Below, one piece after another: positions 5,390 to 21,218 of a stretch of DNA of 26,231 bases; positions within the stretch are counted from its first letter, which is position 1; every line of letters starts with the position of its first letter. Both the position numbers and the translations under genes were made by a program. The stretch covers positions 1-26,231 of the forward strand of contig JAFGGP010000027.1 of NCBI GenBank assembly GCA_016930485.1, written 5' to 3'. Under the pieces are notes generated by a model. That model ran no database searches and was not told the DNA's origin. It saw only the letters and a list, made by a program, of their open reading frames with translations. Source of the DNA: Candidatus Omnitrophota bacterium. GTDB lineage: Bacteria > Omnitrophota > Gorgyraeia > JAFGGP01.

Positions 5390-6346
5390 GTGACGAATAC
5401 AAAACCTAAGGTTGCCATTATCGGTGCCGGGAACGTGGGCAGCACCTTTGCCTTTGCGCTGCTTACAAGCGGCCTGGCACGCGAGATCGTTATCGTTGAC
5501 CGTGATGGAAAAAAGGCCCAGGGCGAATGCATGGATCTTAATCACGGGCTGAGTTTTACCCATCCGTCCCAGGTTTATGCGGCAGGCTTTGAAGGCTGCG
5601 CCGATTCGGATATCGTAATAATTACAGCCGGCGCCAGACAGAAGGAAGGTCAGACACGCACCGATCTTGTGCAGGCGAATGCGGAGATTTTTAAATTGAT
5701 CATTCCTCAAATCATTTCCTATGCGCCGGAGGCCATTCTGCTGGTGGTGACCAACCCGGTAGATATTCTTACTTACATTACCCTTAAGATATCGGGATTT
5801 CCGAAAAGACGGGTGATCGGCTCAGGCACAGTGCTGGATTCTTCGCGGTTTCGCTATCTGATAAGCGAGCACTGTCACGTGGACCCGAGAAACGTGCACG
5901 CGTATATCATCGGCGAGCACGGCGATACCGAACTTCCGGTCTGGAGCAATGCCAATATCGGCGGCATGAAGATAGAGCAGTTTTGCCCGACCTGCAAAGA
6001 ATTCGATAGCTGCCGGCGCACGAAGGCGTTGAAGCGAATATTCGATGAGGTGAAAAACGCGGCCTATAAGATTATCGAGGCCAAAGGGGCGACGTATTAT
6101 GCCGTTGCCCTGGCCCTGGTCAAGATCACCGAGGCGATCCTGCGTGATCAAAACTCTGTCCTGCCGGTCTCGACCCTGATCAGCGACTATTACGGGATAG
6201 ATGATGTGTGTCTTGGCCTGCCGTCGATTGTCAACCGGAACGGGGTAGAACAATTCCTGCGCCTTGCGCTTTCCGATGAGGAAGAGAAGCGGCTGCGGCA
6301 TTCGGCAGAGACGCTTAAGGATATCATCAGGCGCATCATCTTGTAA
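5390..6346 (+). CDS. ldh: L-lactate dehydrogenase (LDH/MDH superfamily; Gln at the substrate-discriminating position)
   Basis: GTG start after SD AGGAGGAGG. Rossmann fold VAIIGAGNVGS. ITAGARQKEGQTRTDL carries Q, not R, at the LDH/MDH-discriminating position. Catalytic IGEHGD is present. Confidence 0.85.
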   Translation: MTNTKPKVAIIGAGNVGSTFAFALLTSGLAREIVIVDRDGKKAQGECMDLNHGLSFTHPSQVYAAGFEGCADSDIVIITAGARQKEGQTRTDLVQANAEIFKLIIPQIISYAPEAILLVVTNPVDILTYITLKISGFPKRRVIGSGTVLDSSRFRYLISEHCHVDPRNVHAYIIGEHGDTELPVWSNANIGGMKIEQFCPTCKEFDSCRRTKALKRIFDEVKNAAYKIIEAKGATYYAVALALVKITEAILRDQNSVLPVSTLISDYYGIDDVCLGLPSIVNRNGVEQFLRLALSDEEEKRLRHSAETLKDIIRRIIL

Positions 6347-6435: not shown

Positions 6436-7641
6436 CTACATATACCGTTCTACGCTGCCGGTTACCTCTTCAAAGACCGGTTTTATTTCCTGTTTTTCTC
6501 TACCGAAGCAGACCCCCATATTTTCAAAGAGGGCTATTGAGGATATATCGACAAAGCGCTGTTCGATCGCCTTTTTGGTATTTATGTATCGTATTTTGTC
6601 CCGGTCGATTCCCGCGACGGTGACGCCGGTGACGCCTTTTATCAGGAGAAGAACCGCCGCCGCGCCGGCCTCTTTTCCGAAGTTGACATCATAGGCGGAT
6701 GAGTGCCCGCTCCTGACCAGGTGGCCTGGTTGTACCGACCTTACCTCCGGAATTTCGTAAAGAGCCGGGACAAAGAGTCCTGTCTTTTTCATAAGTTCTT
6801 TTACCTCAGGGTCAGCCTTAAAACGCTTTGAGAGCTCCTGACACACGTATTTTCCGGCACCGGCAAGCTTTTTGTGCCCAAAGGCGTCAACGCCCGCCGA
6901 TTCGTCATAGAGTTCTGAGCCGTCGGCATTTTTTATTCCCTCTGCCACGATGATCAGATAGGTGCCTGCGTGCACATCGCTGCCCTCGATGCGCCTGAAG
7001 TACCTGTTTTTTGCGTGCCGGTAGAGGATATCGAAGTTAATCGGGACTTCGGGGATGAGGACGGCATCGGCGTCCGCGGCGATGCCGCCCCTAAAGGCCG
7101 TGTGGCCGGCATAGCGACCGAATACCTCAAGGACGATGATCCGGTTATGCGTCCGTCCGGTGGTCTTCAGGTCCTCCGCGAAGGCGGCAATCCGGTTAAT
7201 GGTGGAGTCGCCGCCCACAGAGTAGGTCTGAAGGTCAAGGTCCATCGTCTTGGGGGCGTGGATGCAGCGGATGCCCTGCTCGGAGAGGTCGACCATCACA
7301 CTGCCGGTGTCATCACCCCCGCTGATAATCAGTCCGTCGATGTCAAATTTTTTAAGGCCCGCCTTAATGCGCTCATATTTTTTGTCGTCGTTGATCTTTT
7401 TGATCTTCACGCGGGAGTGCCCTGCCTCAGAACCGGCAAGGTTTGCCCCGATCGAATCGACACGCTGGGGGGTAAGCTCTACAAGGTGCTCAAAGTCAAG
7501 GAGATTGTACAGCCCTGCGTAGCCGTTGGGTATGACAAAGCAGGAAATGCCTTTTTTGTGGGCCAGCTGTGCCGCCCCTTTTATGACTGCATTTAAACCG
7601 CCGCAATCGCCACCGCTTGTAATAATACCTATCTTTTTCAT
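6436..7641 (-). CDS. pfk: 6-phosphofructokinase, PFK-A family, long form with PPi-type signature residues
   Basis: MKKIGIITSGGDCGGLNAV. GGDDTGS has Asp at the E. coli Gly104 equivalent. HAPKTMDLD has Lys at the Gly124 equivalent and keeps the catalytic Asp. The SD lies on the minus strand (aaggagtgttttATG). Confidence 0.85.
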   Translation of the reverse strand: MKKIGIITSGGDCGGLNAVIKGAAQLAHKKGISCFVIPNGYAGLYNLLDFEHLVELTPQRVDSIGANLAGSEAGHSRVKIKKINDDKKYERIKAGLKKFDIDGLIISGGDDTGSVMVDLSEQGIRCIHAPKTMDLDLQTYSVGGDSTINRIAAFAEDLKTTGRTHNRIIVLEVFGRYAGHTAFRGGIAADADAVLIPEVPINFDILYRHAKNRYFRRIEGSDVHAGTYLIIVAEGIKNADGSELYDESAGVDAFGHKKLAGAGKYVCQELSKRFKADPEVKELMKKTGLFVPALYEIPEVRSVQPGHLVRSGHSSAYDVNFGKEAGAAAVLLLIKGVTGVTVAGIDRDKIRYINTKKAIEQRFVDISSIALFENMGVCFGREKQEIKPVFEEVTGSVERYM

Positions 7642-7961
7642 AAAACACTCCTTTTTCTATTCGAGGTTCGAAACTCGTATTTTTTCGCAACATCAATGTT
7701 TTTACGAGCATCGAGTATAGACAGCCGGGCGTCGAAAAACCATACTTTATTATTAGCATCCTACTTTATCATAAAGCACGGAAAAATCAACCTTGAATTT
7801 CGATCTTTTTCCCTGAATGCAAGCAGATCGGCAAGCTCTAAAAAACGCTTCCATTCAAGCTCACATTACTGTTATAATAATTAACCTATTCTTATCTTAT
7901 TATACAATGCAACCCCTCCACAGTCAGACAATTCGAAGCTAAGATACGAAAGGACATTCAG
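7642..7961. promoter_or_regulatory. AT-rich divergent promoter region between pfk (-) and the 864-aa gene (+)
   Basis: 320-bp noncoding AT-rich interval. A candidate -10 TATAAT lies at 7873-7878 but has no clean -35. SD AAAGGA precedes the ATG at 7962. Confidence 0.3.
7662..7677. promoter_or_regulatory. 16-bp near-perfect palindrome CGAGGTTCGAAACTCG in the pfk 5' UTR, about 20-35 nt upstream of its start
   Basis: 14 of 16 positions are self-complementary. The centre is TTCGAA. Candidate operator. Confidence 0.3.
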
Positions 7962-10556
7962 ATGATTAGCACAGGCATACCAGGTTTAGATACAGTTCTT
8001 ACGGGTTTAAAACTGGGGGACAATGTAGTCTGGCAGATAGACGATATACAGGACTACATTGATCTCGTGGAGCCTTTTGCCGAGCAAACGCTCAAGGAAA
8101 ATAAACGTCTTGTCTATATGAGATTTGCCTCACACCAGGAGATGTTGAAACCTTCAGAAAACATTCAGCGATATGAACTGGATGCATTTGAAGGATTTGA
8201 ATCTTTTGCCACAAAGGTGAACAATATTATTACCGAAGAAGGCGAAGGCGTATATTATGTCTTTGATTGTCTTTCAGAACTGCTTTCTGCCTGGGCAACC
8301 GACCTTATGATAGGCAACTTTTTTGTGGTAACCTGTCCGTATCTCTTCGAACTAGGTACAGTCACGTATTTTTCGATCTTCCGGACAAATCATTCTTTTA
8401 AATCCATAGCGCGCATTCGTGAGACAACTCAGTTATTACTGGATGCGTACCGGTGCGAAGGCCATTTTTATATTCATCCTTTAAAAGTATGGAAACGTTA
8501 TTCACCCACCATGTTTCTTCCTCATCAAAAAGAAGGCGACGTATTTGTCCCTATTACCGATAGCGTTAATGCCGTGAAACTCCTTTCATATATGCGTGAG
8601 AAAGGGGCAGAAAGCGCAAAGAGGAATCTGGACTACTGGGATCGTCTGTTTCTTGAGGCTGAAGAGCTGCTTGATGACAAGGCCAATAAAAAGCAAGTTA
8701 ACGACATGAAAGAAAAGCTTTGCAGTCTCATGATTGGTAAGAGTGAAAAAATCCTCGATTTAGCACAGCAGCACTGTTCACTTGTAGAGCTTTTAGAGAT
8801 CAAATCCCGATTGATAGGAACAGGATATATCGGTGGCAAGAGTGTAGGTATGCTTTTGGCAAGAAAGATTCTTTCAAAGAGCAAGTTGCTCGATTGGCAG
8901 AATCTTTCAGAGCCGCACGACTCTTTTTACATTGGGTCTGACATATTCTATTCCTACATGGTGCAGAATCAATTGTGGAAGCTCCGCATGCAGCAGAAGA
9001 CAGAAGACGGGTATTTTAGCGTAGCAAAAGATATCCAAGAGAAGATACTCGCCGGGACATTCCCTGAGGAGATTATGGAGCACTTCCACCAGATTATAGA
9101 GTATTTTGGTATGTCTCCTATAATCATTCGCTCCAGTTCGCTTCTGGAAGATGGCTTTGGAAATGCGTTTGCCGGAAAATATGAAAGCGTGTTTCTGGCT
9201 AATCAGGGAAATCCTGAACGTCGGTACAAGGAATTTGCCGCGGCTGTAAAAAAGATTTACGCAAGCACTATGAGTGAAAATGCGCTGGTATACAGAAAAA
9301 AGAGAGGTCTTGATAAGATGGATGAGCAGATGGCTCTTCTGGTGCAGCGTGTTTCAGGATCGCATAACGGTAACTATTTCTTTCCTGATCTGGCGGGAGT
9401 GGGTGTATCGCATAACATTTATATGTGGAATGAAAGCATGGATCCAAAAACAGGTATGCTGCGTTTGGTATTTGGGCTGGGCACAAGGGCGGTCGATCGC
9501 GTCGAGGGCGACTATCCACGAATGGTGGCGCTCGATAATCCTCTGCAAAGGCCATATGCACAGAAGAGCGACCTGCGCAAATTTTCACAGCATAAGGTAG
9601 ACGTTATAAACATACAAGACAATGAATTTCAAGTTATTCCTTTCGAGGAGCTGATACGCCAAAAAGCCTATGAAGACATACATCGTGTTGCTATCAAAGA
9701 CGATGAGGCTATAGGCATGATGAGCCGCTCGGGCAGAGAAGACAGGGAATACTGGATTTTGACACTGGATAAGGTGTTTAAAGACGACGCATTCGCGGAG
9801 GCCTTTACAAACATATTGCGGACACTCGAAGATAGCTATAATTATCCTGTGGAAATAGAGTTCACCGTCAATTTTACCGGCCAGGACACTTTTAAAATAA
9901 ACGTCCTTCAGTGTAGACCGCTTCAGGCACGAGGACACCGACCAAGGGTTGAAATGCCTAAGGATGTCAAAAAAGAAGACACGCTTTTTGAATCATACGG
10001 CTATTTTCTTGGCGGCAATGTTCTTCAGGAGATCAAGAGAGTGATTTATGTTGATCCGGAAGAATACATCAGGCTCATATTGCCGGATAAATATGAAATT
10101 GCCCGTATTGTAGGCAGACTGAATGCATCCATAGAGGACAGAGAGAAGATGCCTACTCTTCTTATGGGGCCTGGCAGGTGGGGTACAACAACACCGTCCT
10201 TAGGCGTGCCGGTCAGCTTTTCCGAGATAAACAATGTAGCAGCTCTTGCAGAGATTGCTTTTCCGGCCGGCAATCTTATGCCTGAATTATCCTTTGGAAC
10301 GCATTTTTTCCAAGACTTGGTTGAGACCAATATTTTCTACGTTGCACTATTCCCTGATAAGGAAGATGTTATTTATGACAATTCATTATTCAAGAAAGAG
10401 CTGAATCTGCTTCCAGAGTTTCTGCCTCAATCTATCAGATACCAGAATGTTGTTGGTATGTATGATGTAGGGACTAAGGGGTTGAAGATTATATCAGACG
10501 TTATCTCCCAGAAGATTATCTGTTTTTCAGGTGCAAAGAAGACATCCAATCGATAA
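7962..10556 (+). CDS. multidomain protein: N-terminal KaiC/RadA-like RecA-fold domain lacking a Walker A, central PPDK_N / PEP-synthase-type nucleotide-binding domain, and a C-terminal region of about 220 aa of unknown function
   Basis: N-terminus: MISTGIPGLDTVLTGLKLGDNVVWQIDD shows the KaiC entry motif but no GxxxxGK[ST]. VYYVFDCLSE is Walker-B-like. Middle: IGGKSVGMLLARKI, IIRSSSLLEDGFGNAFAGKYESVFL and ALLVQRVSG fit the PPDK_N family. I found no GGxxSHAAI phospho-His motif. Confidence 0.7.
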   Translation: MISTGIPGLDTVLTGLKLGDNVVWQIDDIQDYIDLVEPFAEQTLKENKRLVYMRFASHQEMLKPSENIQRYELDAFEGFESFATKVNNIITEEGEGVYYVFDCLSELLSAWATDLMIGNFFVVTCPYLFELGTVTYFSIFRTNHSFKSIARIRETTQLLLDAYRCEGHFYIHPLKVWKRYSPTMFLPHQKEGDVFVPITDSVNAVKLLSYMREKGAESAKRNLDYWDRLFLEAEELLDDKANKKQVNDMKEKLCSLMIGKSEKILDLAQQHCSLVELLEIKSRLIGTGYIGGKSVGMLLARKILSKSKLLDWQNLSEPHDSFYIGSDIFYSYMVQNQLWKLRMQQKTEDGYFSVAKDIQEKILAGTFPEEIMEHFHQIIEYFGMSPIIIRSSSLLEDGFGNAFAGKYESVFLANQGNPERRYKEFAAAVKKIYASTMSENALVYRKKRGLDKMDEQMALLVQRVSGSHNGNYFFPDLAGVGVSHNIYMWNESMDPKTGMLRLVFGLGTRAVDRVEGDYPRMVALDNPLQRPYAQKSDLRKFSQHKVDVINIQDNEFQVIPFEELIRQKAYEDIHRVAIKDDEAIGMMSRSGREDREYWILTLDKVFKDDAFAEAFTNILRTLEDSYNYPVEIEFTVNFTGQDTFKINVLQCRPLQARGHRPRVEMPKDVKKEDTLFESYGYFLGGNVLQEIKRVIYVDPEEYIRLILPDKYEIARIVGRLNASIEDREKMPTLLMGPGRWGTTTPSLGVPVSFSEINNVAALAEIAFPAGNLMPELSFGTHFFQDLVETNIFYVALFPDKEDVIYDNSLFKKELNLLPEFLPQSIRYQNVVGMYDVGTKGLKIISDVISQKIICFSGAKKTSNR

Positions 10557-10598
10557 CAGTTGTATTATTTTTTTACCTTTAACCGAGGGAGGTGGATT

Positions 10599-11567
10599 AT
10601 GGCCGAAGTTGCGGAAATTAAATCGGTAGACCTGAACCCTCAGGAGTTTATCGAGACGCAGATAGCCGACATCGCGAGGCTGGTAGGGGGCGGCACGGCG
10701 ATTAACGCGCTATCCGGCGGGGTTGATTCTTCTGTGGTGACAATGCTGGGTCATAGGGCGCTGGGCGATAGCCTGAAGACATACTTTATAGATAATGGCA
10801 TTATGAGAGAGGGTGAGCCCCAGCGGATAGTGAATCTGTTTAAGGGGTTGGGCGTTACGGTTGAGATAGTGGACGCCAAAGAGAAATTTTTCAATGCGTT
10901 AAAGGGCATCACCGATCCTGAAGAAAAAAGAGAGGCGATCACCCAGACATTCTACAAGGATGTCTTCGGTCGCCTGGTGCGGGCGAGCGGAGCAAGGTAT
11001 TTGCTCCAGGGAACAATCCTTACGGATATCGATGAGACCGTAGCCGGCATTAAAAGACAGCACAATGTCTTTGAGCAGCTGGGTATCAATCCTGAGGCAG
11101 CCTTTGGTTACAAGATTATCGAACCGGTAGTGCAGCTGCGTAAAGACGGGGTAAGAAAAGTAGCAAAGGTCCTCGGCCTGCCCGAGTCGATATATAACCG
11201 CATGCCGTTTCCCGGGCCGGCACTTTCGGCACGTGTTATCGGCGAGGCAACCCCGGAGCGAATAGCCCTGGTAAGGGCGGCTACCCGGATTGTCGAAGAA
11301 GAGCTCAGGTCTACGGGGGCGTTCCAGTATATGGCCATCCTTCATCAGGACAGGGTAACGGGGATGCGTGACGGCAAGAGGGATTTTGGTCTTCAGATAG
11401 AGATACGGTGCTGGGACAGCGTTGATGCCCGCCTGGCGGCGCCAACGAGGCTGCCTTACGAGATACTGGATGCCCTTGCCAGGCGGATTATAGCAGAGGT
11501 GGCGGGTGTGGCGAGTGTTACGTACAATATAACAACGAAACCGCCTTCAACCATGGAGGCGGTATAG
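10599..11567 (+). CDS. guaA: GMP synthase ATP-pyrophosphatase subunit (GuaA subunit-B type: PP-loop domain plus C-terminal dimerisation/XMP domain), standalone
   Basis: PP-loop ALSGGVDSSV. HNVFEQLG. MPFPGPALSARVIGE. C-terminal VTYNITTKPPSTMEAV resembles the canonical GuaA end ...KPPATIEWE. SD GGGAGGTGG precedes the ATG at 10599. No glutamine amidotransferase domain is adjacent. Confidence 0.8.
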   Translation: MAEVAEIKSVDLNPQEFIETQIADIARLVGGGTAINALSGGVDSSVVTMLGHRALGDSLKTYFIDNGIMREGEPQRIVNLFKGLGVTVEIVDAKEKFFNALKGITDPEEKREAITQTFYKDVFGRLVRASGARYLLQGTILTDIDETVAGIKRQHNVFEQLGINPEAAFGYKIIEPVVQLRKDGVRKVAKVLGLPESIYNRMPFPGPALSARVIGEATPERIALVRAATRIVEEELRSTGAFQYMAILHQDRVTGMRDGKRDFGLQIEIRCWDSVDARLAAPTRLPYEILDALARRIIAEVAGVASVTYNITTKPPSTMEAV

Positions 11568-11688: not shown

Positions 11689-11742
11689 TGCAATAAGAAA
11701 AAGTGAATATCATAGCAGATACAGAGCGGAGGCTTGGTGATT

Positions 11743-13110
11743 ATGGACGACAAAAAGGTGTATTTAAGTGAACGGGATATCCCGCGCCAGTGGTATAACC
11801 TGGCGGCGGATCTGCCGACTTCTCCGAGGCCTCCTCTGGGTGCTGACGGCAGACCGATTACACCGGATATGTTATCGGCGGTTTTTCCAATGAATTTAAT
11901 AGAGCAGGAGGTGAGCACCAAGCGCTGGATCGACATACCCGAGGAGGTGCTTGAGATTCTGTACCGCTGGCGGCCGTCCCCCCTGAGGCGTGCGGTGTAC
12001 TTAGAGCGACATTTAAAGACGCCGGCGCGCATTTACTACAAAGACGAAAGTCTCAGTCCTCCCGGCAGCCACAAACCAAATACCGCGGTCGCCCAGGCAT
12101 GGTATAACAAACAATTCGGGATAAAGAGGCTGACGACGGAGACAGGGGCCGGGCAGTGGGGCAGCGCACTTGCTTTTGCCTGCAACCTGATAGGTCTTGA
12201 GTGTAAGGTGTATATGGTCAGGATCAGCTTTGATCAGAAGCCGCTCAGAAAAAGTATGATGCGGATATGGGGCGGCACGTGCGTGGCCAGTCCGAGCGAC
12301 CAGACAGAGTTCGGAAGAAGGATATTGCGGGAAATGCCTGATACGCCCGGCAGTCTGGGAATAGCGATCAGCGAGGCCATAGAAGAGGCGGTGAGCGATG
12401 CCTCCGGAAAAACGCGCTACTCACTCGGCAGCGTGCTCAATCACGTAATGCTGCACCAGACGATTATCGGGCTTGAGGCCCAAAAACAACTCGCACTCAT
12501 AAACGAAAAACAGCCCGATATTATTATCGGCTGCGCTGGCGGGGGAAGCAATTTCGCGGGGCTTGCCTTTCCCTTTGTGAACGACAAAATAAACGGGGCA
12601 CATATTACTATTATACCTACCGAGCCGACGGCCTGTCCGACTCTGACAAAGGGGCCGTTTGCCTATGACTTTGGCGATACCGCCTGCCAGACTCCGCTTC
12701 TTGCGATGTTTACCCTGGGACACGGTTTTGTCCCGCCCCCGATACATGCGGGAGGGCTGAGGTATCACGGTATGGCCCCTCTGGTGAGCCATGCGGTCAG
12801 GGAGGGTTTGCTCGAGCCGCGTTCCTATGACCAGATCAGATGTTATGAAGCGGCTCTCACATGGGCGCGGACAGAGGGTTTCATATGTGCCCCTGAGACA
12901 AGCCATGCGGTTGCCTGTGTTATCGATGAGGCGAACAGGGCTAAAAAAGAGGGCAGAGAAAAGGTTATTTTAATGAATTACAGCGGTCACGGGCTTATGG
13001 ATCTTGCGGGTTATAACAAATTTCTCGACGGGGAATTGACAGAGTATCATTTGCCGGAGGAGGAATTGCGAAGATCTCTGGCGGCCATCAAAGATTTGCC
13101 AAAGCCGTAG
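11743..13110 (+). CDS. trpB2: tryptophan synthase beta-subunit paralog TrpB2 (PLP-dependent, indole-scavenging type)
   Basis: Length about 455 aa with an N-terminal extension. PLP lysine context [26 protein letters not shown] glycine-rich loop. Alternative in-frame starts exist at GTG 11737 and TTG 11734 after SD GGAGG. No trpA is adjacent. Confidence 0.85.
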
Positions 13111-13142
13111 TGCGCTATTACAAGAGGGATAAGGAGACGCTT

Positions 13143-13658
13143 ATGGAAGAGAGAAAAGGGGCGGTTACATTAAAAGGGAGCCCGGTGACGCTGCTGGGTA
13201 GAGAGATTAGGATCGGCGATAAGGCGCCTGCTTTTAGCGTATTAAACCAGGATATGGAGACGGTAAACTCCGGGAAGTTCAGCGGTAAAATTAGGGTCAT
13301 CGCCGCGGTCCCTTCGCTGGATACGCCGATATGCGACAGCTCGATCAAGCGGTTTAATGACGAGGCAACCCGCCTCTCAAAGGATGTCGTGGTTCTTTTT
13401 ATCAGCATGGACCTGCCGTTTGCACAGAAACGGTTCTGTCAGGACAATAATATAAAGAGGGTGAAGACCCTTTCCGATTACAGAGACGCGGATTTCGGAG
13501 AAAAATTCGGCGTACTGATAAAAGAACTCAGGCTTCTGGCCCGTGCCGTCTTTATCGTAGATAAGGACGAGACCGTACGGTATGTGGAGCATGTAAAGGA
13601 AATCGCCACACCGCCGGATTATGAATCGGCGCTTGAGGCGATAAAGAAACTTGTATAA
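13143..13658 (+). CDS. tpx: thiol peroxidase (Tpx-type atypical 2-Cys peroxiredoxin)
   Basis: VTLKGSPVTLLG N-terminus. Peroxidatic Cys in PSLDTPICD. Resolving Cys in KRFCQDNN. SD AAGGAGA precedes the ATG at 13143. The ORF track's 13110 start overlaps the trpB2 stop. Confidence 0.85.
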   Translation: MEERKGAVTLKGSPVTLLGREIRIGDKAPAFSVLNQDMETVNSGKFSGKIRVIAAVPSLDTPICDSSIKRFNDEATRLSKDVVVLFISMDLPFAQKRFCQDNNIKRVKTLSDYRDADFGEKFGVLIKELRLLARAVFIVDKDETVRYVEHVKEIATPPDYESALEAIKKLV

Positions 13659-13669
13659 ACAACATACAG

Positions 13670-15397
13670 ATGCACTATCTTAATGAACAAAACATTTTTC
13701 TTTTTTTAGTACAGCTGGCGATACTGCTTGCACTGACGAGGAGCCTCGGTGAAGTCTTTCGCAGGTGCAAACAGCCGCCCTTGACCGCCGAGCTTCTGGT
13801 GGGCATTATGCTGGGGCCTACCATTCTGGGGCGTCTCTTGCCGCAATGGCACCGGCTGGTATTCCCGGTCGATCCTATTCAGCAGAATATGCTCGAGACG
13901 GTTGCCTGGATAGGTGTGTTATTTCTTCTGCTTGAAACAGGCCTGGAGGTTGACTTTTCTGCCGCGTGGCGCCAGAGGGGAGACGCCCTCACGATCGCCT
14001 TGTGGGACATTATTATCCCTATGGCGGTCGCCTTTATTCCTTGTTTTCTTCTGCCAGCCCATTATTTAGTGGACCCTGATCACAGACTCATTTTTTCCCT
14101 TTTTATGGCAACGGCCATGACGATAAGTGCCATGCCAATAGCGGCAAGGGCGCTGCATGACCTGAAACTTTCAAAGACAGACCTGGGTTTTCTCATAATG
14201 TCCGCCCTCTCTGTAAACGATATTATCGGGTGGCTCCTTTTTACGGTTGTCCTCGGCTTTTTTACCCAGTCACATATTTCCATTTCCACTGTGACGGTGA
14301 TTATCGGGGCCAGCATCGGCTTTGCCTTTTTATGCTTAACACTCGGGCGCGCATTCGCCAATAGTGTGATCTTCAAGATAAAAGAAAAACAAATGCCCCA
14401 GCCGGGCACCTCATTGACATTTATCTGCCTTCTTGGCCTGGTCTGTGGGGCCATTACCCAGAAAATAGGCATACACGCCTTATTCGGTTTTTTTATCGCC
14501 GGTGTTATGGCAGGCGGGGCCAGAGAGCTCTCCGAAAGGACCCGCCAGATTATCGCTCAGATGGTATACGCCTTATTTGTCCCGGTTTTCTTCGCTGGAA
14601 TAGGGCTTAAGATAGATTTTTTGCGTAACTTTGACGTTTTTCTTATTGTGTTGATAAGTGTTATCGGCATCCTTGGCAGATTTTTCGGCGCTTGGTTTGG
14701 GACGGGTTTTACCAGTATTTCAAAGGAGAATCGCATTCCGATCGCGATAGCCCACACCCCTGGCGGAGCAATGGAGATAGTAGTGGGCATGCTCGCTCTG
14801 GAATATAATTTAATTACCGAGCCTGTCTTTGTGGCTATCGTATTCGGGGCGGTTATTTCATCGGTGATTATGGGACCATGGCTTAATTATTCCATTAAAA
14901 AACGAAAAGAGGTCAGCGTACTGGAGTATTTCTCGCGCAGGGACGTTATTCATTTGAGGTCGAGCTCGCGAGACAAGGCAATTGGGGAGCTTTGCGAACT
15001 CGCGGCGGAGCATGAGGATATGCCCGGGCTCGATGTGCTGTATTCCGCGGTCCTTGACCGCGAGAACACTATGGGCACGGCACTTGAGGAGGGCATAGCC
15101 GTACCGCACTCACGCCTGCCGAATATCAAAAGACCGGTTATTGTGTTCGGAAGGTCTTTTTCAGGCATAGACTGGAATTCTCCGGATGGAAAACCGGCGC
15201 GGCTGGTTTTTTTAATCTTGACCCCGCAGGATGAGGATATGACGCAGCTGCAGATACTGCGCTTTATCGCCGTCACCATGAGTGACCCAGGGAAGAGGAA
15301 AAGGCTGCTTGAGGCGCATGAGAGCGGGGAGATATGGGACGAGCTGAGAAAGATATTTACACCCCATTTTATCGTTAAAGAAAAGAAGAAGGAGTAG
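13670..15397 (+). CDS. CPA2-family monovalent cation:proton antiporter (Kef/NhaP-like, about 11 TM) fused to a C-terminal PTS EIIA type-2 (PtsN/fructose-type) domain
   Basis: N-terminal LAILLALTRSLGEVFRRCKQPPLTAELLVGIMLGPTILG is a typical CPA2 start. The C-terminal roughly 150 aa read IHLRSSSRDKAIGELCEL...GTALEEGIAVPHSRL..PVIVFGRS..GIDW. This is an EIIA-2 fold with the phosphorylatable His in the IAVPH motif. Confidence 0.8.
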   Translation: MHYLNEQNIFLFLVQLAILLALTRSLGEVFRRCKQPPLTAELLVGIMLGPTILGRLLPQWHRLVFPVDPIQQNMLETVAWIGVLFLLLETGLEVDFSAAWRQRGDALTIALWDIIIPMAVAFIPCFLLPAHYLVDPDHRLIFSLFMATAMTISAMPIAARALHDLKLSKTDLGFLIMSALSVNDIIGWLLFTVVLGFFTQSHISISTVTVIIGASIGFAFLCLTLGRAFANSVIFKIKEKQMPQPGTSLTFICLLGLVCGAITQKIGIHALFGFFIAGVMAGGARELSERTRQIIAQMVYALFVPVFFAGIGLKIDFLRNFDVFLIVLISVIGILGRFFGAWFGTGFTSISKENRIPIAIAHTPGGAMEIVVGMLALEYNLITEPVFVAIVFGAVISSVIMGPWLNYSIKKRKEVSVLEYFSRRDVIHLRSSSRDKAIGELCELAAEHEDMPGLDVLYSAVLDRENTMGTALEEGIAVPHSRLPNIKRPVIVFGRSFSGIDWNSPDGKPARLVFLILTPQDEDMTQLQILRFIAVTMSDPGKRKRLLEAHESGEIWDELRKIFTPHFIVKEKKKE

Positions 15398-15650: not shown

Positions 15651-16961
15651 ATGAAAGCAAATGTTCCGCGCCGGGAGGACTTGGAGAGTTTATCCATTGC
15701 AAGGGTGGGGGAGCCGACCATCGAGTCTCCCTTGAAACTGAGGGGCAACCTGTTTACCGATGATTCCGACCGGGTTGTCGTGCATGCCGACTCGGATACT
15801 ATCGGCGCCTCTCTCAAAGAGGGTGAGATGCCTCCCATGTTTGAGGCGGCTGGTCCCCGCAAGAAGATTTTTTTTGACCCGGCTAGCCTGACCTGCGGTA
15901 TTGTAACCTGCGGCGGACTGTGCCCCGGCCTCAACGACGTGGTGCGCTCAATCACATTAACCCTGCTTTTGCAGTACGGGGTTAAAAAGGTCCTGGGGTT
16001 CCGGTATGGATATGGAGGGCTTTCGGCAAACGCGGATCACCCGCCTATGGAGCTGACACCCGATGTGGTTGACGGGATTCAACATAAGGGCGGGACCATC
16101 CTCGGCACGAGCCGTGGGATGCAGGAACCGGCCGAGATGGTCGAAACCCTCCTTGAGTATGACGTCAGGATTCTTTTTGTCGTCGGCGGTGACGGCACAT
16201 TTAAGGGGGCGCACCGGATTGCCGCCGAAATCAAGAAACGAGGTCTAACGATAGCGGTGGTAGGAGTTCCCAAGACGATCGATAACGACATCTACGGGTC
16301 GGAGAGCAGTTTCGGGTTTGGCACCGCCGTGGACAAGGCGAGAGAGGCTATAGCCTCTGCGCACGAAGAGGCCCGTGCCGCATTTAACGGAATCGGTCTG
16401 GTTAAGGTGATGGGGCGCGACTCCGGATTTATCGCCGCCTGCTCGTCACTCGCGAACAGTGACGTAAATTTCTGCCTTATCCCCGAGTCACCCTTTAGGC
16501 TTGAGGGAGACGACGGATTGCTCCGCAGGATAGAGACGAGACTGGCACGCAAGCACCATGCGGTTATTGTCGCCGCTGAAGGGGCCGGGCAGGGGCTCCT
16601 TAAGGAAACCCATCAAAAGGATGCAGCAGGAAACGTCATCTATGCCGATATCGGTCTTTTCCTTAAGGGAGCTATTTCGGAATACCTTTCACAGAAGAAT
16701 ATATCCTTTACTATTAAATACATCGACCCGAGTTATACCATCCGCAGCTGTCCTGCCAATGCGCGCGATTCCATCTTTTGTCTGCTTCTGGCCGAGATGG
16801 CCGTGCATGCGGGAATGGCAGGGAAAACAGACATGTTTGTCGGCTACTGGAATCAGCATTTTACCAATATGCCACTGAGTTTTGCGGTCAATAAAAGAAA
16901 GAAACTCGATACAAATGGTCCTCTCTGGCAGACGTTACTTGCGATTACCAGCGAAAAATAA
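15651..16961 (+). CDS. pfk: 6-phosphofructokinase paralog, PFK-A family (mixed ATP-type and PPi-type signature residues)
   Basis: TCGGLCPGLNDV. GGDGTF has Gly at the position-104 equivalent. GVPKTIDNDI has Lys at the position-124 equivalent. Length about 436 aa, as in actinobacterial and PPi-related PFKs. Confidence 0.85.
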   Translation: MKANVPRREDLESLSIARVGEPTIESPLKLRGNLFTDDSDRVVVHADSDTIGASLKEGEMPPMFEAAGPRKKIFFDPASLTCGIVTCGGLCPGLNDVVRSITLTLLLQYGVKKVLGFRYGYGGLSANADHPPMELTPDVVDGIQHKGGTILGTSRGMQEPAEMVETLLEYDVRILFVVGGDGTFKGAHRIAAEIKKRGLTIAVVGVPKTIDNDIYGSESSFGFGTAVDKAREAIASAHEEARAAFNGIGLVKVMGRDSGFIAACSSLANSDVNFCLIPESPFRLEGDDGLLRRIETRLARKHHAVIVAAEGAGQGLLKETHQKDAAGNVIYADIGLFLKGAISEYLSQKNISFTIKYIDPSYTIRSCPANARDSIFCLLLAEMAVHAGMAGKTDMFVGYWNQHFTNMPLSFAVNKRKKLDTNGPLWQTLLAITSEK

Positions 16962-17029: not shown

Positions 17030-18769
17030 ATGAAGCGAAGAGCAGTTTTAACATCCTGTTTAGGTATATGCCTGATACTGAGCCCCCTTTCCTGCTCTTA
17101 CCGGACCGCCGGGGTCACGCAACCGATGATTCCTGTATGTGAGAATCTTCATGTCTCCGGGGATATAGAGTATCCCGCCTCACCGTGCAGTTCCCTTATC
17201 AAGGGTGCACTCGAAAACAGAACCCATTACGTTACCGTGCTTGATAACGGCGATGATGCCCTCCTTGCCCGGGCACACCTTATCAGGAACGCACAACAGA
17301 CTATTCTCATACAGACTTTTATTTGGGGGGCCGATGAATCGGGTCGTTTCCTTTTCTCTGAGCTCATTCAGGCTGCAAAACGGGGAGTCAAGGTCAGGAT
17401 TCTTATTGATGCCCTTGGCCTGCCTGCCGAGCCGCGTCTCATTGCGTTTTTAACCGCTGTCCATCCGAACATCGAGATTAAATTTTATAATCCGGTTTCC
17501 GATAAAGTTATCTCTTCCAAGCTGGCGTTACTCAAAAAGGCCAGCCTTGATTTCAGCGGCCTCAATCAACGGATGCATAATAAGATATTTGTTGTCGATG
17601 ACCGGTTTGGGATTACCGGAGGGCGCAATTACGAAAACGATTATTTTGACCGGGGGAGAAAACGGAATTTCAGAGACTGCGATGTGTTGGTAATAGGGCC
17701 TGTTGTCAGAGATATGACAGATTCGTTTATGGAGTACTGGTCGTTTGATTTATCCGTACCGAGCGGGGATATGCTCGATGTCAGGACCTTGATTGAACGG
17801 GGGGAGTATACAGAGTACTCCTCGAAAGAGAGCTTTGAACTCGGGAGGTTTTTTGGAGAACTCGAGAGGCGTGCATCGGATACCAGTTCTATACAGAGAC
17901 TGCTTGTCGACCCGAGCCACGGGGCAGGACACGTTTCCTTCATTGCCGATCACCCCGGCAAGAGGGAGCGCATCGGAAAGAGGCAGATCGCGCGGACAAC
18001 ATACGAGTTAGGCCGGTTCCTTTTGCGGGCTGAAAAGTCTCTGGTTGTGCAGACACCCTATCTGGTGGTAGACAAGAAGAATGCGAGGTATTTTAAAAAA
18101 CTGGCGAGGAGCAAACCTGATCTGGAATGCCTGATATCCAGCAACAGCCTTGCGTCGGCCGACCATGTCCATGCCTATGCCTTTTCCTTTAAAAATAAAA
18201 AGAAGTATCTCAAGGATTTTCGCTGGCAGATCTTTGAATTAAGACCGGACCCGAAGGACGCCGATCTGATGATCACGCCGGTTAATAAAGAAGAGAGGGT
18301 TGGGGGCTATATTACCTGCATTCATGCCAAGACCTACGTGGTTGACGGCCAGGCGGTGTGGGTGGGGTCATTCAACCTTGACCCGCGGTCAGCCAATCTC
18401 AATACAGAGGCTGGATTAATCATCGATGATGAAGGGGTGGCACAGGCAATAGAGAAGAATATCCGCAGGGATATGGCTCATCAGAATAGCTGGACTATAG
18501 GCAGGCGTCCAAAGGTACCGGTAGTATCCCGGTTCAGCAGACCCTTGGGGAATATAATCAGGGCTATCCCGGTTGTCGATGTATGGCCTTTTACCTATTC
18601 CGGATGCTTTGAGTTAAAAGAAGGCAGGGCCGTCGTGCCGTTTTACCATGAAGATTTTTATGGAAACTACCGGTATGTCGGACCGTTTCCTGGGGTTATG
18701 CTCAGTGAAAAAGAGATAAAAGCACGGCTTATCAAGGCATTTTTGGGCCCTGCAGAGCCGTTGATATAA
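17030..18769 (+). CDS. secreted or lipid-anchored phospholipase D-superfamily enzyme with two HKD motifs (ClsB/ClsC-like cardiolipin synthase or phospholipase D)
   Basis: Signal peptide MKRRAVLTSCLGICLILSPLSCS. HKD-1 is HNKIFVVDDRFGITGGRNYENDYF. HKD-2 is HAKTYVVDGQAVWVGSFNLDPRS. Confidence 0.8.
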   Translation: MKRRAVLTSCLGICLILSPLSCSYRTAGVTQPMIPVCENLHVSGDIEYPASPCSSLIKGALENRTHYVTVLDNGDDALLARAHLIRNAQQTILIQTFIWGADESGRFLFSELIQAAKRGVKVRILIDALGLPAEPRLIAFLTAVHPNIEIKFYNPVSDKVISSKLALLKKASLDFSGLNQRMHNKIFVVDDRFGITGGRNYENDYFDRGRKRNFRDCDVLVIGPVVRDMTDSFMEYWSFDLSVPSGDMLDVRTLIERGEYTEYSSKESFELGRFFGELERRASDTSSIQRLLVDPSHGAGHVSFIADHPGKRERIGKRQIARTTYELGRFLLRAEKSLVVQTPYLVVDKKNARYFKKLARSKPDLECLISSNSLASADHVHAYAFSFKNKKKYLKDFRWQIFELRPDPKDADLMITPVNKEERVGGYITCIHAKTYVVDGQAVWVGSFNLDPRSANLNTEAGLIIDDEGVAQAIEKNIRRDMAHQNSWTIGRRPKVPVVSRFSRPLGNIIRAIPVVDVWPFTYSGCFELKEGRAVVPFYHEDFYGNYRYVGPFPGVMLSEKEIKARLIKAFLGPAEPLI

Positions 18770-18863
18770 CACAACGTTGCAAGAGCGCCCTGCCGGGACG
18801 CGGGGCGTTCTATTAACCCTTTTCAAAAAAACCGTTCCGGAGAATGGAAAGGCGCTACACATT

Positions 18864-20444
18864 ATGTTTGATCCTGCAAAAAAAAGACACCGATTAAGGA
18901 TTATTGTCCCGGCCTACCCTGCTTTTAATATTTACTCGGGCGTCGCTAATAAGACGACCGCCCTTGGTCCTGTATGTGTTGCCAGCGCGGTCAATGAGAT
19001 GGAGGGTTGGGACGTTGAGGTTATTGATGAGAATAACCTTTGCCGGTACGGCCCGCGCTCTCAGGAAGGGGGAGCGGATCATGAGTTTTTACAGCGCAGC
19101 CGGCCGGCGGATATAGTAGGGCTATACGGAGGACTTACCAGCACGATACCAAGGCTCTACAGGATAGCGCGGTTTTATAAAGAAAAAGGAATCCCGGTTA
19201 TCGGCGGAGGCCAGCATTTTGTCGATGAAAATCTGGATGAGGCCCTGCACTCCGGCATTGACTACATTGTGAGGGGTGAAGGGGAGATAACCATAAAAGA
19301 ACTTTTGCAGGCAATTCGGGAAGGAAAGTCGATAGATCTGATTCGGGGAATTGCCTATCTTAAAGACGATAAGGTGGTGCTGACAGAACCCAGGGAGCCG
19401 ATCACGGATTTTGACGCTTTACCGCACCCTAATTTCTCACTGGTGCGCTACGCAAAGATAAAGCTCTATCCGGTGGGGAGGATTCGCGGCTGCGGGATGG
19501 ACTGCGAGTTTTGCACCGTAAAAGGCAAGCCCCGCTGCGCCTCTCCCGAGAGGCTCTTGGAGGATATCCGGTTTCTTCTTGAGACCCGCGATGCTAGGCA
19601 CTTTTTTATCGTCGACGATCTCTTTGGGCAATACCGCGATGAGACTATCGAGTTTTGCCGCATGCTTGAGTGTTACCAGAGGCGTGTGGACAGGCGGTTG
19701 GACATAACCGTCCAGATCAGACTCGATAAAGCAAGGGATCCGGAACTCTTGACTGCTATGCGCCATGCAGGAATTAACACGGTAGCCATCGGTTTTGAAT
19801 CGCCCATTGACGAGGAGCTGCTCGCCATGAGGAAAAAGGTGAGACCTCAGGACATGATCGATCTGGCGCGGGCGTATCACCGGGCCGGTTTTCTGGTGCA
19901 CGGCATGTTTATTTTTGGGTATCCCCTCAAGGGAAGCGGGGACTTTGTTCTGTCAAGGGAAGAGCGGATTAGACGATTCAGGACTTTTATAAAAAAGGCG
20001 AAGATCGACACGGTACAGATACTGCTGCCGGTTCCGCTGCCCGGGACAGAGTTGCGTCAGAGACTCAAGGAGCAAGGTCGTATCTATCCCAAGGATGATA
20101 TAGGCTGGGAATACTATGACGGAAATTTTCCCATATTTGAACCAGATCGGCCATTAAGTGCAAAAGACCTGCAGGACTCTATCTGTGATATCATGGGCAA
20201 GTTCTATCAGTTTAAGTATATGTTTATGGTCGGGTTCCATATTTTTTCTTTTCCTGCCCTCGTGTTCTTTCTGCACAATATTAAGTCGGGATGGAGAAGA
20301 TGGTATCGCCCGTGGCGCAATGCCCTGGCCCGTTTTGGCGGGTGGATTATCTTAAAAGGGTGGTTGTCGCAGTTCGAGAGAGGCCCCTTCATCCAGAAAC
20401 TGAAACAGGCCCAGAGGCATCTCAGAGAAAAGAACAACCACTGA
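18864..20444 (+). CDS. B12-binding-domain radical SAM protein (class B) with a Trp/Arg-rich amphipathic C-terminal tail
   Basis: N-terminal cobalamin-binding fold RIIVPAYPAFNIYSGVANKTTALGPVCVASAVNEMEGWDVEVID. CxxxCxxC in GCGMDCEFCTV. The C-terminal tail FHIFSFPALVFFLHNIKSGWRRWYRPWRNALARFGGWIILKGWL suggests membrane-interface binding. The ORF track's earliest in-frame start is 18777; I prefer ATG 18864 (MFDPAKK...). The gene begins only 8-95 bp after the PLD stop. Confidence 0.75.
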   Translation: MFDPAKKRHRLRIIVPAYPAFNIYSGVANKTTALGPVCVASAVNEMEGWDVEVIDENNLCRYGPRSQEGGADHEFLQRSRPADIVGLYGGLTSTIPRLYRIARFYKEKGIPVIGGGQHFVDENLDEALHSGIDYIVRGEGEITIKELLQAIREGKSIDLIRGIAYLKDDKVVLTEPREPITDFDALPHPNFSLVRYAKIKLYPVGRIRGCGMDCEFCTVKGKPRCASPERLLEDIRFLLETRDARHFFIVDDLFGQYRDETIEFCRMLECYQRRVDRRLDITVQIRLDKARDPELLTAMRHAGINTVAIGFESPIDEELLAMRKKVRPQDMIDLARAYHRAGFLVHGMFIFGYPLKGSGDFVLSREERIRRFRTFIKKAKIDTVQILLPVPLPGTELRQRLKEQGRIYPKDDIGWEYYDGNFPIFEPDRPLSAKDLQDSICDIMGKFYQFKYMFMVGFHIFSFPALVFFLHNIKSGWRRWYRPWRNALARFGGWIILKGWLSQFERGPFIQKLKQAQRHLREKNNH

Positions 20445-20477: not shown

Positions 20478-21218
20478 ATGAGACTTAATGCGGTTCGTGT
20501 TTATTTTTACGGCGACCTTTCTCTGTTTCTGGCAAGGCGCGGCGCGGCGTCAATTTCTGTGCAATTGGCGGGCGATAGGGTTTCTATCAAGGATCTTGTT
20601 GAGTCCCTGGGGGTGCCTCATACCGAGATCGACGCGCTGTTTGTTAACGACAGGGCTGTCGGATTTTCACATCGTATAAGCGGCAATAAAAGAGTCAGGG
20701 TGTATCCCGACGCATCCCGGGTGCGCTTTGCTGGCGTTAAAAAATTGCGGCCTACCAATCCGCATAAGCCGGCCTTTTTGGTTGATGTGCATCTGGGAAA
20801 GGTCGCGAGGATGCTGCGCCTTCTGGGTTTTGACACGGTTTTTGATCCTGCGTTGGATGACACAGGTATTATAGACGCGGCCGTAAAGAGTAGGCGGATT
20901 ATACTGACCAGGGACAAGGGGATACTGAAACAGCGCCGGGTCAGGTACGGCTATTATGTTAGAGGAGACAGCCTGACAGAGAGGATGCGCGGTATTGTCA
21001 GGCGATACGATCTCACGGGGAAGATAAAACCCTTTGCACGGTGCGTGGGGTGTAACGGCAGGCTGAGACGTGTTCGCAAAGAAAGAGTGCTCTCTGAGCT
21101 CGAACCTCTGACCCGCCGCTACTACGATGAGTTTTACCGATGCATCTCCTGTGGCAAAATCTACTGGGAGGGGTCACACCACCCCCGAATACTGGCGTTC
21201 ATAAAAAATATTACCTAA
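20478..21218 (+). CDS. Ub-Mut7C protein: N-terminal ThiS/MoaD-like beta-grasp domain, Mut7-C (PIN-like) RNase domain, and C-terminal CxxC...CxxC zinc ribbon
   Basis: N-terminus: VYFYGDLSLF...VSIKDLVESLGVPHTEIDALFVNDRAV, a beta-grasp fold ending in VRVYP. Mut7-C core: FLVDVHLGKVARMLRLLGFDT...ILTRD. Zinc ribbon: CVGCNG ... CISCGK. Confidence 0.7.
   Translation: MRLNAVRVYFYGDLSLFLARRGAASISVQLAGDRVSIKDLVESLGVPHTEIDALFVNDRAVGFSHRISGNKRVRVYPDASRVRFAGVKKLRPTNPHKPAFLVDVHLGKVARMLRLLGFDTVFDPALDDTGIIDAAVKSRRIILTRDKGILKQRRVRYGYYVRGDSLTERMRGIVRRYDLTGKIKPFARCVGCNGRLRRVRKERVLSELEPLTRRYYDEFYRCISCGKIYWEGSHHPRILAFIKNIT

What the first reader, a model, noticed from the sequence alone, without database searches (positions are those of the whole stretch)
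7962..10556. 864-aa protein fusing a P-loop-less KaiC/RadA-like domain to a PPDK_N (PEP-synthase-type) ATP-binding domain, with no phospho-His swivel domain
The first roughly 190 residues start with the KaiC/RadA/RecA entry motif (ISTGIPGLDTVLTGL) and keep a hhhhD Walker-B-like strand (VYYVFDCLSE). The position where the Walker A GxxxxGK[ST] should be instead reads LKLGDNVVWQIDD. I read this as a degenerate RecA-fold domain that is probably ATPase-dead. Residues about 285-640 carry the hallmark blocks of the PEP-utilising nucleotide-binding (ATP-grasp-like) domain. I found no GGxxSHAAI phospho-histidine motif and no PEP/pyruvate TIM-barrel motif. The last roughly 220 aa are unassigned. I do not recognise this architecture from PpsA, PPDK or rifampin phosphotransferase. 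The gene is followed after 43 bp by an orphan PP-loop ATP-pyrophosphatase. The pair could form an uncharacterised ATP-dependent modification or activation module, with one enzyme phosphorylating or pyrophosphorylating and the other adenylating.
Basis: partly seen in the sequence, partly recalled or inferred. Interest (0 to 1): 0.72.

Follow-up and report, generated by a model that had tools for sequence, protein, structure and literature searches.

The report
Nitrogen-linked dead-KaiC / ATP-grasp phosphotransferase
The gene encodes one member of a large, uncharacterised bacterial protein family that joins an inactivated KaiC-like domain to a pyruvate-phosphate-dikinase-type ATP-binding domain and an unclassified C-terminal domain, and across at least six phyla its relatives sit beside ammonium-assimilation genes, not beside the PP-loop gene seen here.

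Summary

- The architecture is not rare. There are more than 8000 database hits and at least 595 loci in species-representative genomes, annotated 'PEP/pyruvate-binding domain-containing protein'.
- The PP-loop gene is not a conserved partner (0 of 80 loci adjacent).
- 40 of 69 usable loci have a nitrogen-assimilation gene immediately adjacent (GdhA, GltD/GltB, Amt/PII, GlnA, CarAB, PyrG, NrpR, GAF-sigma54 activator). The closest orthologues lie in glnA-gltB-gltD-X-carAB/pyrG/guaA operons.

Best reading (inferred): a dikinase-type ATP-dependent phosphotransferase or regulator tied to glutamine/glutamate metabolism, possibly relaying phosphate through H781 to an acceptor on the dead-KaiC domain. 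The function has not been tested.

The parts
7962..10556 (+). 864-aa ORF: iKaiC domain, helical linker, PPDK_N ATP-grasp, family-specific C-domain
   Evidence: ORF. Identical to database entry P0001, 'PEP/pyruvate-binding domain-containing protein', Candidatus Omnitrophica MAG, on a 26231-bp contig. AF2 model pLDDT 81.7.
7962..8561 (+). Residues 1-200: inactivated KaiC/RecA-like domain (iKaiC)
8016..8057 (+). Residues 19-32, GDNVVWQIDDIQDY: beta1 plus the loop that replaces Walker A
   Evidence: G19, D20, N21 and V22 are invariant and D27 nearly so. No GxxxxGK[ST] in any member.
8250..8270 (+). Residues 97-103, VYYVFDC: Walker-B-like strand with invariant D102
   Evidence: Y99, F101 and D102 are invariant. 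Strand E97-103 in the model.
8562..8816 (+). Residues 201-285: helical linker. Helices from about residue 242 belong to the ATP-grasp module.
   Evidence: Helices H201-218, 225-238, 243-257, 262-271 and 274-282. The first module of the 1470-aa long forms aligns from query residue 242.
8826..9974 (+). Residues 289-671: PPDK_N-type ATP-grasp nucleotide-binding domain
9942..10553 (+). Residues 661-864: family-specific alpha/beta C-terminal domain, with a weak 'swivelling beta/beta/alpha'-like fold
10167..10184 (+). Residues 736-741, GPGRWG: conserved Gly-rich loop after a strand (P737, G738, R739, G741 invariant; W740 nearly invariant)
10302..10304 (+). His781 codon: the only His in the C-domain, invariant, in LS[FY]G[TS]HFFQDLVE at the start of helix 780-789. 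Candidate phospho-acceptor.
   Evidence: Invariant in 35 sequences from several phyla and in both modules of the long forms. Follows a low-pLDDT loop at 768-781. Position checked.
10599..11567 (+). Downstream PP-loop (GuaA C-terminal-like) gene. It is a neighbour in this genome only, not a conserved partner.
   Evidence: Pfam and NCBIfam. No terminator-like site between the two genes. Absent next to homologues.

Best explanation
The gene encodes a member of a widespread, uncharacterised family of three-domain, ATP-dependent phosphotransfer proteins that work in glutamine/glutamate (ammonium-assimilation) metabolism.

Shown:
- An intact PPDK/PEPS-type ATP-grasp that should bind ATP and Mg.
- An N-terminal KaiC-fold domain that has lost Walker A and the catalytic glutamates but keeps a strongly conserved, remodelled polar pocket (D20, N21, D27, R54, H58, E80, D102, D114, T155, T156, Q157, K175, R179, H188).
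- A conserved C-terminal domain carrying one invariant His.
- Tight, repeated genomic linkage to gdhA, gltBD, glnA, amt-glnK, carAB, pyrG and nitrogen regulators.

Inferred mechanism: as in PEP synthase and rifampin phosphotransferase, the ATP-grasp pyrophosphorylates or phosphorylates His781. This His sits on a flexible loop-helix of the C-terminal, swivel-like domain. That domain then delivers the phosphoryl group to an acceptor held by the dead-KaiC domain. The acceptor could be a nitrogen metabolite (glutamate, glutamine or 2-oxoglutarate class) or a partner enzyme such as GDH or GOGAT. Alternatively, the dead-KaiC domain acts as the ligand sensor that gates this phosphotransfer.

The PP-loop gene downstream is a local neighbour. 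At most it reflects the family's habit of sitting among glutamine-amidotransferase genes.
For: Architecture and fold.

ATP-grasp catalytic motifs kept and aligned to PEPS/PpsA.

Dead KaiC. Inactivated KaiC ('iKaiC') domains such as MEDS are recognised signalling modules (PMC5847659).

Nitrogen linkage:
- 46 of 69 loci have N-assimilation genes within 8 kb, and 40 of 69 have one immediately adjacent.
- The arrangements differ between Omnitrophota, Planctomycetota, Syntrophales/Syntrophorhabdus, Desulfuromonadales, Bacillota, Spirochaetota and Actinomycetota.
- Neighbour identities were confirmed.
- The closest orthologues lie in GS-GltB-GltD-X-CarA-CarB-GuaA-HisH-HisF-PurF and GS-GltB-GltD-X-GAF/ANTAR strings.
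Against: - No biochemical data, and no paper found on the family.
- I could not inspect model coordinates to see whether H781 can reach the ATP site.
- No conserved protein acceptor gene (HPr-like, response regulator) accompanies the family.
- In this window, and in about a third of loci (many Bacillota and Gammaproteobacteria), there is no nitrogen gene nearby. The long forms also have no conserved context.
Confidence: 0.45

Rival explanations
1. It is a metabolic ATP-grasp enzyme that acts directly on a small nitrogen metabolite. For example, it could form an acyl- or enol-phosphate of glutamate or 2-oxoglutarate, or ligate two substrates. There is no phospho-His relay. The C-domain and dead-KaiC domain only bind substrate or mediate oligomerisation.
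For: The ATP-grasp is intact. The swivel-domain homology is unproven. The gene sits in the middle of operons of biosynthetic enzymes rather than next to regulators in Omnitrophota.
Against: As far as I know, the characterised PPDK_N-type ATP-grasp enzymes (PEPS, PPDK, RPH, GWD, phenylphosphate synthase) work through a phospho-His carrier; this rests on established knowledge, not on a test here. The invariant His at a helix N-terminus on a mobile loop is hard to explain otherwise.
Confidence: 0.25
2. It is a nitrogen-status sensor or regulator. The dead-KaiC domain binds glutamine, 2-oxoglutarate or an adenylate. The ATP-grasp/C-domain then phosphorylates or sequesters GDH, GOGAT or GS. This would be functionally analogous to PknG-GarA or EI-Ntr.
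For: iKaiC domains occur in signalling proteins (PMC5847659). The gene is adjacent to NrpR, GAF-sigma54 activators, GAF-ANTAR and PII-Amt in several phyla. It pairs with gdhA in both gene orders.
Against: There is no dedicated acceptor gene. Linkage alone cannot separate regulator from enzyme. This overlaps with the best explanation, of which it is the 'protein acceptor / sensor' branch.
Confidence: 0.2
3. One reading: the protein and the downstream PP-loop ATP-pyrophosphatase form a dedicated two-enzyme activation/modification module.
For: The two genes are co-directional, about 42 bp apart, with no terminator-like site between them in this window. A full-length GuaA occurs a few genes downstream in one orthologous operon.
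Against: 0 of 80 related loci have a GuaA-like gene adjacent, and only 2 have one within 8 kb. The nearest orthologues have other neighbours.
Confidence: 0.03

Closest known systems
Rifampin phosphotransferase (RPH) and related PEP-synthase-like small-molecule phosphotransferases (e.g. HpeI, PDB 9goj)
   Different: There is no RIF-binding domain; the NCBIfam RPH model matches only residues 335-465 at 34 bits against a cut-off of 999. The C-domain is not recognisably PF00391. The extra domain is a dead KaiC at the N-terminus. The genomic context is nitrogen assimilation, not antibiotic resistance.
PEP synthase (PpsA) / pyruvate phosphate dikinase
   Same: Homologous ATP-grasp with conserved catalytic motifs. 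The domain order, ATP-grasp then a small alpha/beta domain, is the same.
   Different: No GGxTSH phospho-His motif and no PEP/pyruvate TIM barrel. All PEPS NCBIfam scores are 20-70 bits against cut-offs of 600-1060.
Inactivated KaiC-like (iKaiC) domains: MEDS, DUF835, Elp4/5/6, BcsE N-domain
   Same: RecA/KaiC fold without a functional P-loop. Weak Pfam matches to PAXNEB/Elp4, DUF7090 and MEDS. These domains are used as sensor or scaffold modules (PMC5847659).
   Different: Sequence similarity is marginal (best E 5.7e-4 to 0.07). This N-domain has its own invariant residue set. Among the best 150 cluster representatives it occurs only in this architecture.
Enzyme I-Ntr (PtsP) of the nitrogen PTS
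   Different: EI-Ntr uses PEP through a TIM barrel and a canonical His domain, has a GAF sensor, and has a dedicated acceptor (NPr). None of these is present here.

Membership tests
PEP synthase / PPDK (pyruvate, water/phosphate dikinase) | PPDK_N ATP-grasp nucleotide-binding domain with catalytic Lys/Arg/Glu/Gln motifs | tested here: met
   PF01326, E 8.8e-51. hhalign to E. coli PpsA residues 45-339, probability 93.5%. Motifs invariant in the family, except E631 of the Glu pair.
PEP synthase / PPDK (pyruvate, water/phosphate dikinase) | PEP-utilizers mobile domain (PF00391) with the GGxTSH phospho-histidine | tested here: not met
   No Pfam hit, even at E<=10 on the isolated C-domain. No motif in 53 members. 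The profile alignment to PpsA ends before the swivel domain. hhalign probability 0.2%.
PEP synthase / PPDK (pyruvate, water/phosphate dikinase) | PEP/pyruvate-binding TIM barrel (PF02896) | tested here: not met
   No hit. The protein ends about 200 aa after the ATP-grasp.
Rifampin phosphotransferase-like | Full-length match to RPH including the rifampin-binding domain | tested here: not met
Rifampin phosphotransferase-like | C-terminal swivelling phospho-His domain | tested here: inconclusive
KaiC / RadA / RecA ATPases | RecA-like alpha/beta core fold | tested here: met
KaiC / RadA / RecA ATPases | Walker A GxxxxGK[ST] and catalytic Glu after beta2 | tested here: not met
   No Walker A in any member. 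The P-loop position reads DDIQDY. The beta2 end reads YMRFASH, with R54 and F55 invariant, instead of acidic residues.
MEDS / iKaiC sensor domains | Significant match to PF14417 or a related iKaiC model | tested here: inconclusive
   MEDS matched by 4 of 35 members (best E 0.073), DUF7090 by 7 of 35 (best 5.7e-4), PAXNEB by 8 of 35 (best 0.008). All are below the gathering scores.
Conserved two-gene module with a PP-loop ATP pyrophosphatase | Homologues recurrently adjacent to a GuaA-B-like gene | tested here: not met
   tblastn of the PP-loop protein against 80 loci: 2 hits within the 8-kb flanks, none adjacent. Locus maps.
Anti-phage defence systems | Match to a PADLOC model | tested here: not met
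   No hit at E<=0.01.

The most novel reading that the evidence does not exclude
The family is a previously unrecognised nitrogen-status device of anaerobic bacteria. An inactivated KaiC domain senses a glutamine, 2-oxoglutarate or adenylate signal and gates an ATP-driven, His781-mediated phosphoryl relay. The relay modifies the glutamate-forming enzymes (GDH/GOGAT) or produces a phosphorylated nitrogen metabolite. This would be a third kind of C/N control, alongside the PII/GlnD/GlnE system and the nitrogen PTS.
Probability: 0.2. Interest if true: 0.85.

Novelty: new variant of a known kind. Interest (0 to 1): 0.6.

Why it matters
PPDK_N-type ATP-grasp enzymes are known as PEP-forming dikinases, glucan dikinases and small-molecule phosphotransferases. 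None of these is linked to ammonium assimilation.

This family has at least 595 loci in species-representative genomes. Its N-domain alone gives 910 clusters at 50% identity. It spans Omnitrophota, Planctomycetota, Desulfobacterota, Bacillota, Spirochaetota, Actinomycetota and purple sulfur bacteria. In Omnitrophota it is embedded between gltD and the glutamine amidotransferase genes, and in other phyla it is paired with gdhA.

Working out its reaction would either add a missing enzyme to glutamate/glutamine metabolism in anaerobes or reveal a new nitrogen regulator. It would also give a function to a new class of dead-KaiC domain. Current annotation transfers ('phosphoenolpyruvate synthase') are wrong for these genes, which affects metabolic reconstructions of uncultured lineages.

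Tried and rejected
1. Conserved pairing with the PP-loop gene, TrpB2 or PFK. tblastn of the window's neighbours against 80 loci found essentially nothing. Rejected.

2. A split two-module version in Planctomycetes. My ORF clustering labelled a 525-aa upstream ORF as a paralogue. Alignment and Pfam show it is a GAF-sigma54 activator. Corrected.

4. N-domain profile against PDB sequences. Only chance RPA32 hits.

5. Long (1460-1510 aa) forms as a clue to function. Five contexts were examined and share no theme: alpha-amylase plus PGI; PFK, GuaA and IMPDH; others.

6. A sigma-54 promoter upstream of the gene in the window. Matches were at chance level and none lies in the 7642-7961 spacer.

7. 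Defence-system membership. None.

8. Literature. Eight full-text searches found no paper on this architecture or on a nitrogen-linked PPDK_N protein. The Geobacter genome and nitrogen-regulon papers do not mention it.

9. Other architectures carrying the N-domain. None appeared among the best 150 of 910 cluster representatives. The shorter hits look like gene fragments, which I could not verify.
Full report
**Observation**

The ORF is real. It runs from the ATG at 7962 to 10556 (stop included) and encodes 864 aa. It is identical to a database entry from a Candidatus Omnitrophica MAG whose longest contig is 26231 bp, the same length as this window.

Pfam places PPDK_N at residues 289-671 (E 8.8e-51). 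It finds no PEP-utilizers and no PEP-utilizers_C domain. The only N-terminal signal is a sub-threshold PAXNEB/Elp4 match at residues 2-61. NCBIfam models for PEP synthase, RPH and PigC/RedH match only the ATP-grasp segment, at 20-70 bits against cut-offs of 600-1700.

A regular-expression scan finds no Walker A and no G[GA]xx[STC]H motif, either in this protein or in any of 53 aligned family members.

**Structure**

The N-domain is therefore a KaiC/RecA fold. In the alignment of 35 N-domains from many phyla (63% mean column identity):
- The P-loop position after beta1 reads D27-D-I-Q-D-Y.
- The end of beta2, where KaiC has its catalytic glutamates, reads Y52-M-R54-F55-A-S-H58.
- The Walker-B-like strand keeps an invariant D102.

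Many other polar residues are invariant (D20, N21, E80, D114, T155, T156, Q157, K175, R179, H188). This is the pattern of an inactivated but functional 'iKaiC' domain, a class already described for MEDS and DUF835 in signalling proteins (PMC5847659). Individual members give weak hits to PAXNEB, DUF7090 and MEDS.

A phmmer scan of 1.84 billion cluster representatives with the N-domain alone found 910 clusters at E<=1e-3. Among the best 150, the complete proteins are ~845-917 aa, plus one long form of 1484 aa; the rest are shorter and look like fragments. No other architecture appeared.

**ATP-grasp**

HMMER alignments to solved PEP synthases and an hhalign comparison with E. coli PpsA (probability 93.5%, PpsA residues 45-339) align these motifs with their PEPS counterparts:
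- GGK293
- R390-SSS-LEDGFGNAFAGKYES
- VQR463
- E631-I-E633
- Q650-C-R652-P

The key residues of these motifs (K293, R390, E633, Q650, R652) are invariant in the family; E631 is not listed as invariant. The domain is therefore expected to be catalytically competent. This is an inference from conservation.

**C-terminal domain (residues ~661-864)**

- It has no Pfam match even at E<=10 in ten diverse members.
- A profile of 35 sequences finds nothing relevant among PDB sequences.
- Modelled alone, it folds confidently (pLDDT 85.8).
  - PPDK (5.2), RPH (5.0), Enzyme I (4.5) and EI-Ntr (4.3)
  - RraA, cyclases, LD-carboxypeptidase and chaperonin apical domains
- Foldseek finds nothing significant.
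- hhalign against PpsA/PtsI/FryA swivel segments gives probability 0.2%.
- The full-length profile alignment to PpsA stops exactly at VQARP, before the swivel domain.

Homology to PF00391 is therefore not shown.

What is shown:
- A single His (H781) is invariant in LS[FY]G[TS]HFFQDLVE. It lies at the N-terminus of helix 780-789, after a low-confidence loop, and is followed by a strand.
- By my reading, this matches the local topology around the catalytic His of swivel domains. That comparison is an inference.
- R739, in the conserved GPGRWG loop, together with E788 and D846, is invariant.
- The ATP-grasp plus C-domain unit, starting at about residue 242, is duplicated as a unit in 1460-1510-aa relatives. 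These have one module without, and one with, the iKaiC domain, and both copies keep the His motif.

**Distribution**

It has at least 595 confirmed loci in one-genome-per-species contigs. These come from Omnitrophota, Planctomycetota, Syntrophales/Syntrophorhabdus, Desulfuromonadales/Geobacteraceae, Bacillota (Syntrophomonadaceae, Clostridia, Paenibacillus, Anaerobacillus), Spirochaetota, Elusimicrobia, Chromatiales/Ectothiorhodospira and Actinomycetota. Sources name it 'PEP/pyruvate-binding domain-containing protein' or, wrongly, 'phosphoenolpyruvate synthase'.

**Genomic context**

A tblastn search of the PP-loop protein against the 80 fetched loci hits only two, and neither hit is adjacent.

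Clustering all neighbouring ORFs revealed a different and strong theme. The neighbour identities were confirmed by NCBIfam and Pfam:
- Glutamate synthase GltB and GltD
- NADP-glutamate dehydrogenase
- Glutamine synthetase types I and III
- Amt and PII
- CarA and CarB
- PyrG
- NrpR
- GAF-sigma54 activators

Of 69 loci with at least 3 kb of flank, 46 carry such genes within 8 kb, and 40 carry one as an immediate neighbour: GdhA 15, GltD 9, PyrG 5, CarA 4, Amt 4, sigma-54 activator 4, NrpR 3. About a dozen such genes exist per genome of a few thousand genes, so chance adjacency would be near 1%. That figure is my estimate.

The arrangements differ by lineage, which argues for selection rather than inheritance of one operon:
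- Omnitrophota: glnA-gltB-gltD-X-pyrG/carAB
- Planctomycetes: gdhA-X, or (GSIII-PII-Amt)<->(GAF-EBP)-X
- Syntrophales: X><nrpR-gdhA
- Desulfuromonadales: gdhA-X
- Clostridia: X-gdhA

The two closest orthologues examined (74-75% identity) lie in these strings:
- GSIII-GltB-GltD-X-GAF/ANTAR-amidotransferase
- GlnA-GltB-GltD-X-CarA-CarB-GuaA-HisH-HisF-PurF

This second string is a glutamine-producing and glutamine-consuming supercluster.

The GuaA-like gene beside the window's copy fits this broader theme. It is not a dedicated partner.

The window itself lacks gln, glt or gdh genes. The target region has lower GC (0.42-0.46) than its flanks, so the gene may have been relocated. No terminator-like site separates it from the PP-loop gene, and there is no sigma-54 promoter upstream. 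The long forms have no conserved context.

**Mechanism**

Shown:
- A competent-looking PPDK-type ATP-grasp.
- A dead KaiC domain with a conserved remodelled pocket.
- A conserved C-domain with one invariant His.
- Linkage to glutamate/glutamine metabolism.

Inferred (confidence about 0.45 overall):
- The protein works like RPH or PEPS. ATP is used at the grasp domain to load H781 on the mobile C-domain.
- The phosphoryl group is then passed to an acceptor bound at the iKaiC domain. The acceptor is a nitrogen metabolite or a partner enzyme.
- Alternatively, the iKaiC domain senses a metabolite and gates the reaction.

Rivals:
- A direct ATP-grasp enzyme with no His relay (0.25).
- A pure regulator of GDH/GOGAT/GS (0.2; this overlaps with the main model).

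**Comparison with known families**

It is not a PEP synthase or PPDK, because it lacks the His motif and the TIM barrel. It is not an RPH, because it lacks the RIF-binding domain and scores far below the cut-off. It is not an active KaiC/RadA ATPase. The closest working analogue is the RPH/HpeI class of ATP-grasp phosphotransferases. The closest conceptual analogue in nitrogen control is EI-Ntr. No paper on the family was found in eight full-text searches. The library is incomplete, so prior work cannot be excluded.

**Verdict**

- Novelty: a new variant of the dikinase-type phosphotransferases, with a new iKaiC domain and an unexpected, robust link to ammonium assimilation.
- Interest: 0.6.

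Noticed in passing
window 8001-11000: GC content drops to 0.42-0.46 over the target gene and the start of the PP-loop gene, against 0.49-0.55 on both sides. Together with the atypical neighbourhood, this suggests the gene was relocated or acquired here.
   Followed up: partly
window 10599-11567: The PP-loop protein is GuaA-C-terminal-like (SGGVDS motif, GMP_synt_C) but scores below both NCBIfam GMP-synthase cut-offs (299 vs 338.75 bits; 273 vs 400 bits). It has no GATase domain, and no GATase gene was seen among the window ORFs that were scanned. It could be an ammonia-dependent or split GMP synthase, or a paralogue with another substrate.
   Followed up: partly
window 11734-13110: A TrpB2-type 'TrpB-like PLP-dependent enzyme' (PRK12391, 694 bits) lies directly after the GuaA-like gene, with no other trp genes nearby. 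It is followed by thiol peroxidase (13110-13658) and a large membrane protein, possibly a cation/proton antiporter (13670-15397; not scanned against any family library).
   Followed up: no
window 6436-7641 (-) and 15651-16961 (+): Two phosphofructokinase-family genes lie within 10 kb. The first is divergent from the target gene. A malate/lactate dehydrogenase-like gene (5390-6346; not scanned against any family library) is next to it.
   Followed up: no
window 17030-18769 and 24329-25783: Two PLD-superfamily (cardiolipin-synthase-like) genes. Between them lie a B12-binding radical SAM gene (18777-20444), a Ub-Mut7C + Mut7-C RNase gene (20478-21218), a GNAT and a PIG-L deacetylase.
   Followed up: no
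P0002-P0011, P0014; loci L083-L087: Relatives of 1460-1510 aa (about 48% identity; Geobacter sp. OR-1 and metagenomes) are tandem fusions: [ATP-grasp + C-domain] followed by [iKaiC + ATP-grasp + C-domain]. Both modules keep the His motif. Their gene neighbourhoods share no common theme.
   Followed up: partly
L013 6405-7979, L027 6427-7980, L033 6405-7979 (also L028): In Planctomycete loci, a GAF + sigma-54 activator + HTH_8 regulator (NifA/NtrC-like) sits directly upstream of the family member and divergent from an Amt-PII-GSIII-GltB block. The family member may therefore be sigma-54/nitrogen regulated there.
   Followed up: partly
L088 9805-10521: In the closest NCBI orthologue's operon, a GAF-ANTAR (RNA-binding antiterminator) regulator immediately follows the family member.
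   Followed up: no
L017 2258-3799, and homologues in L022 and L034: A ~513-aa protein about 5 kb upstream in three Planctomycete loci contains an HPr-like segment (GFHVRPSGLVAKIV). With three related genomes only, this may be coincidental, but it would be a candidate phospho-acceptor.
   Followed up: no
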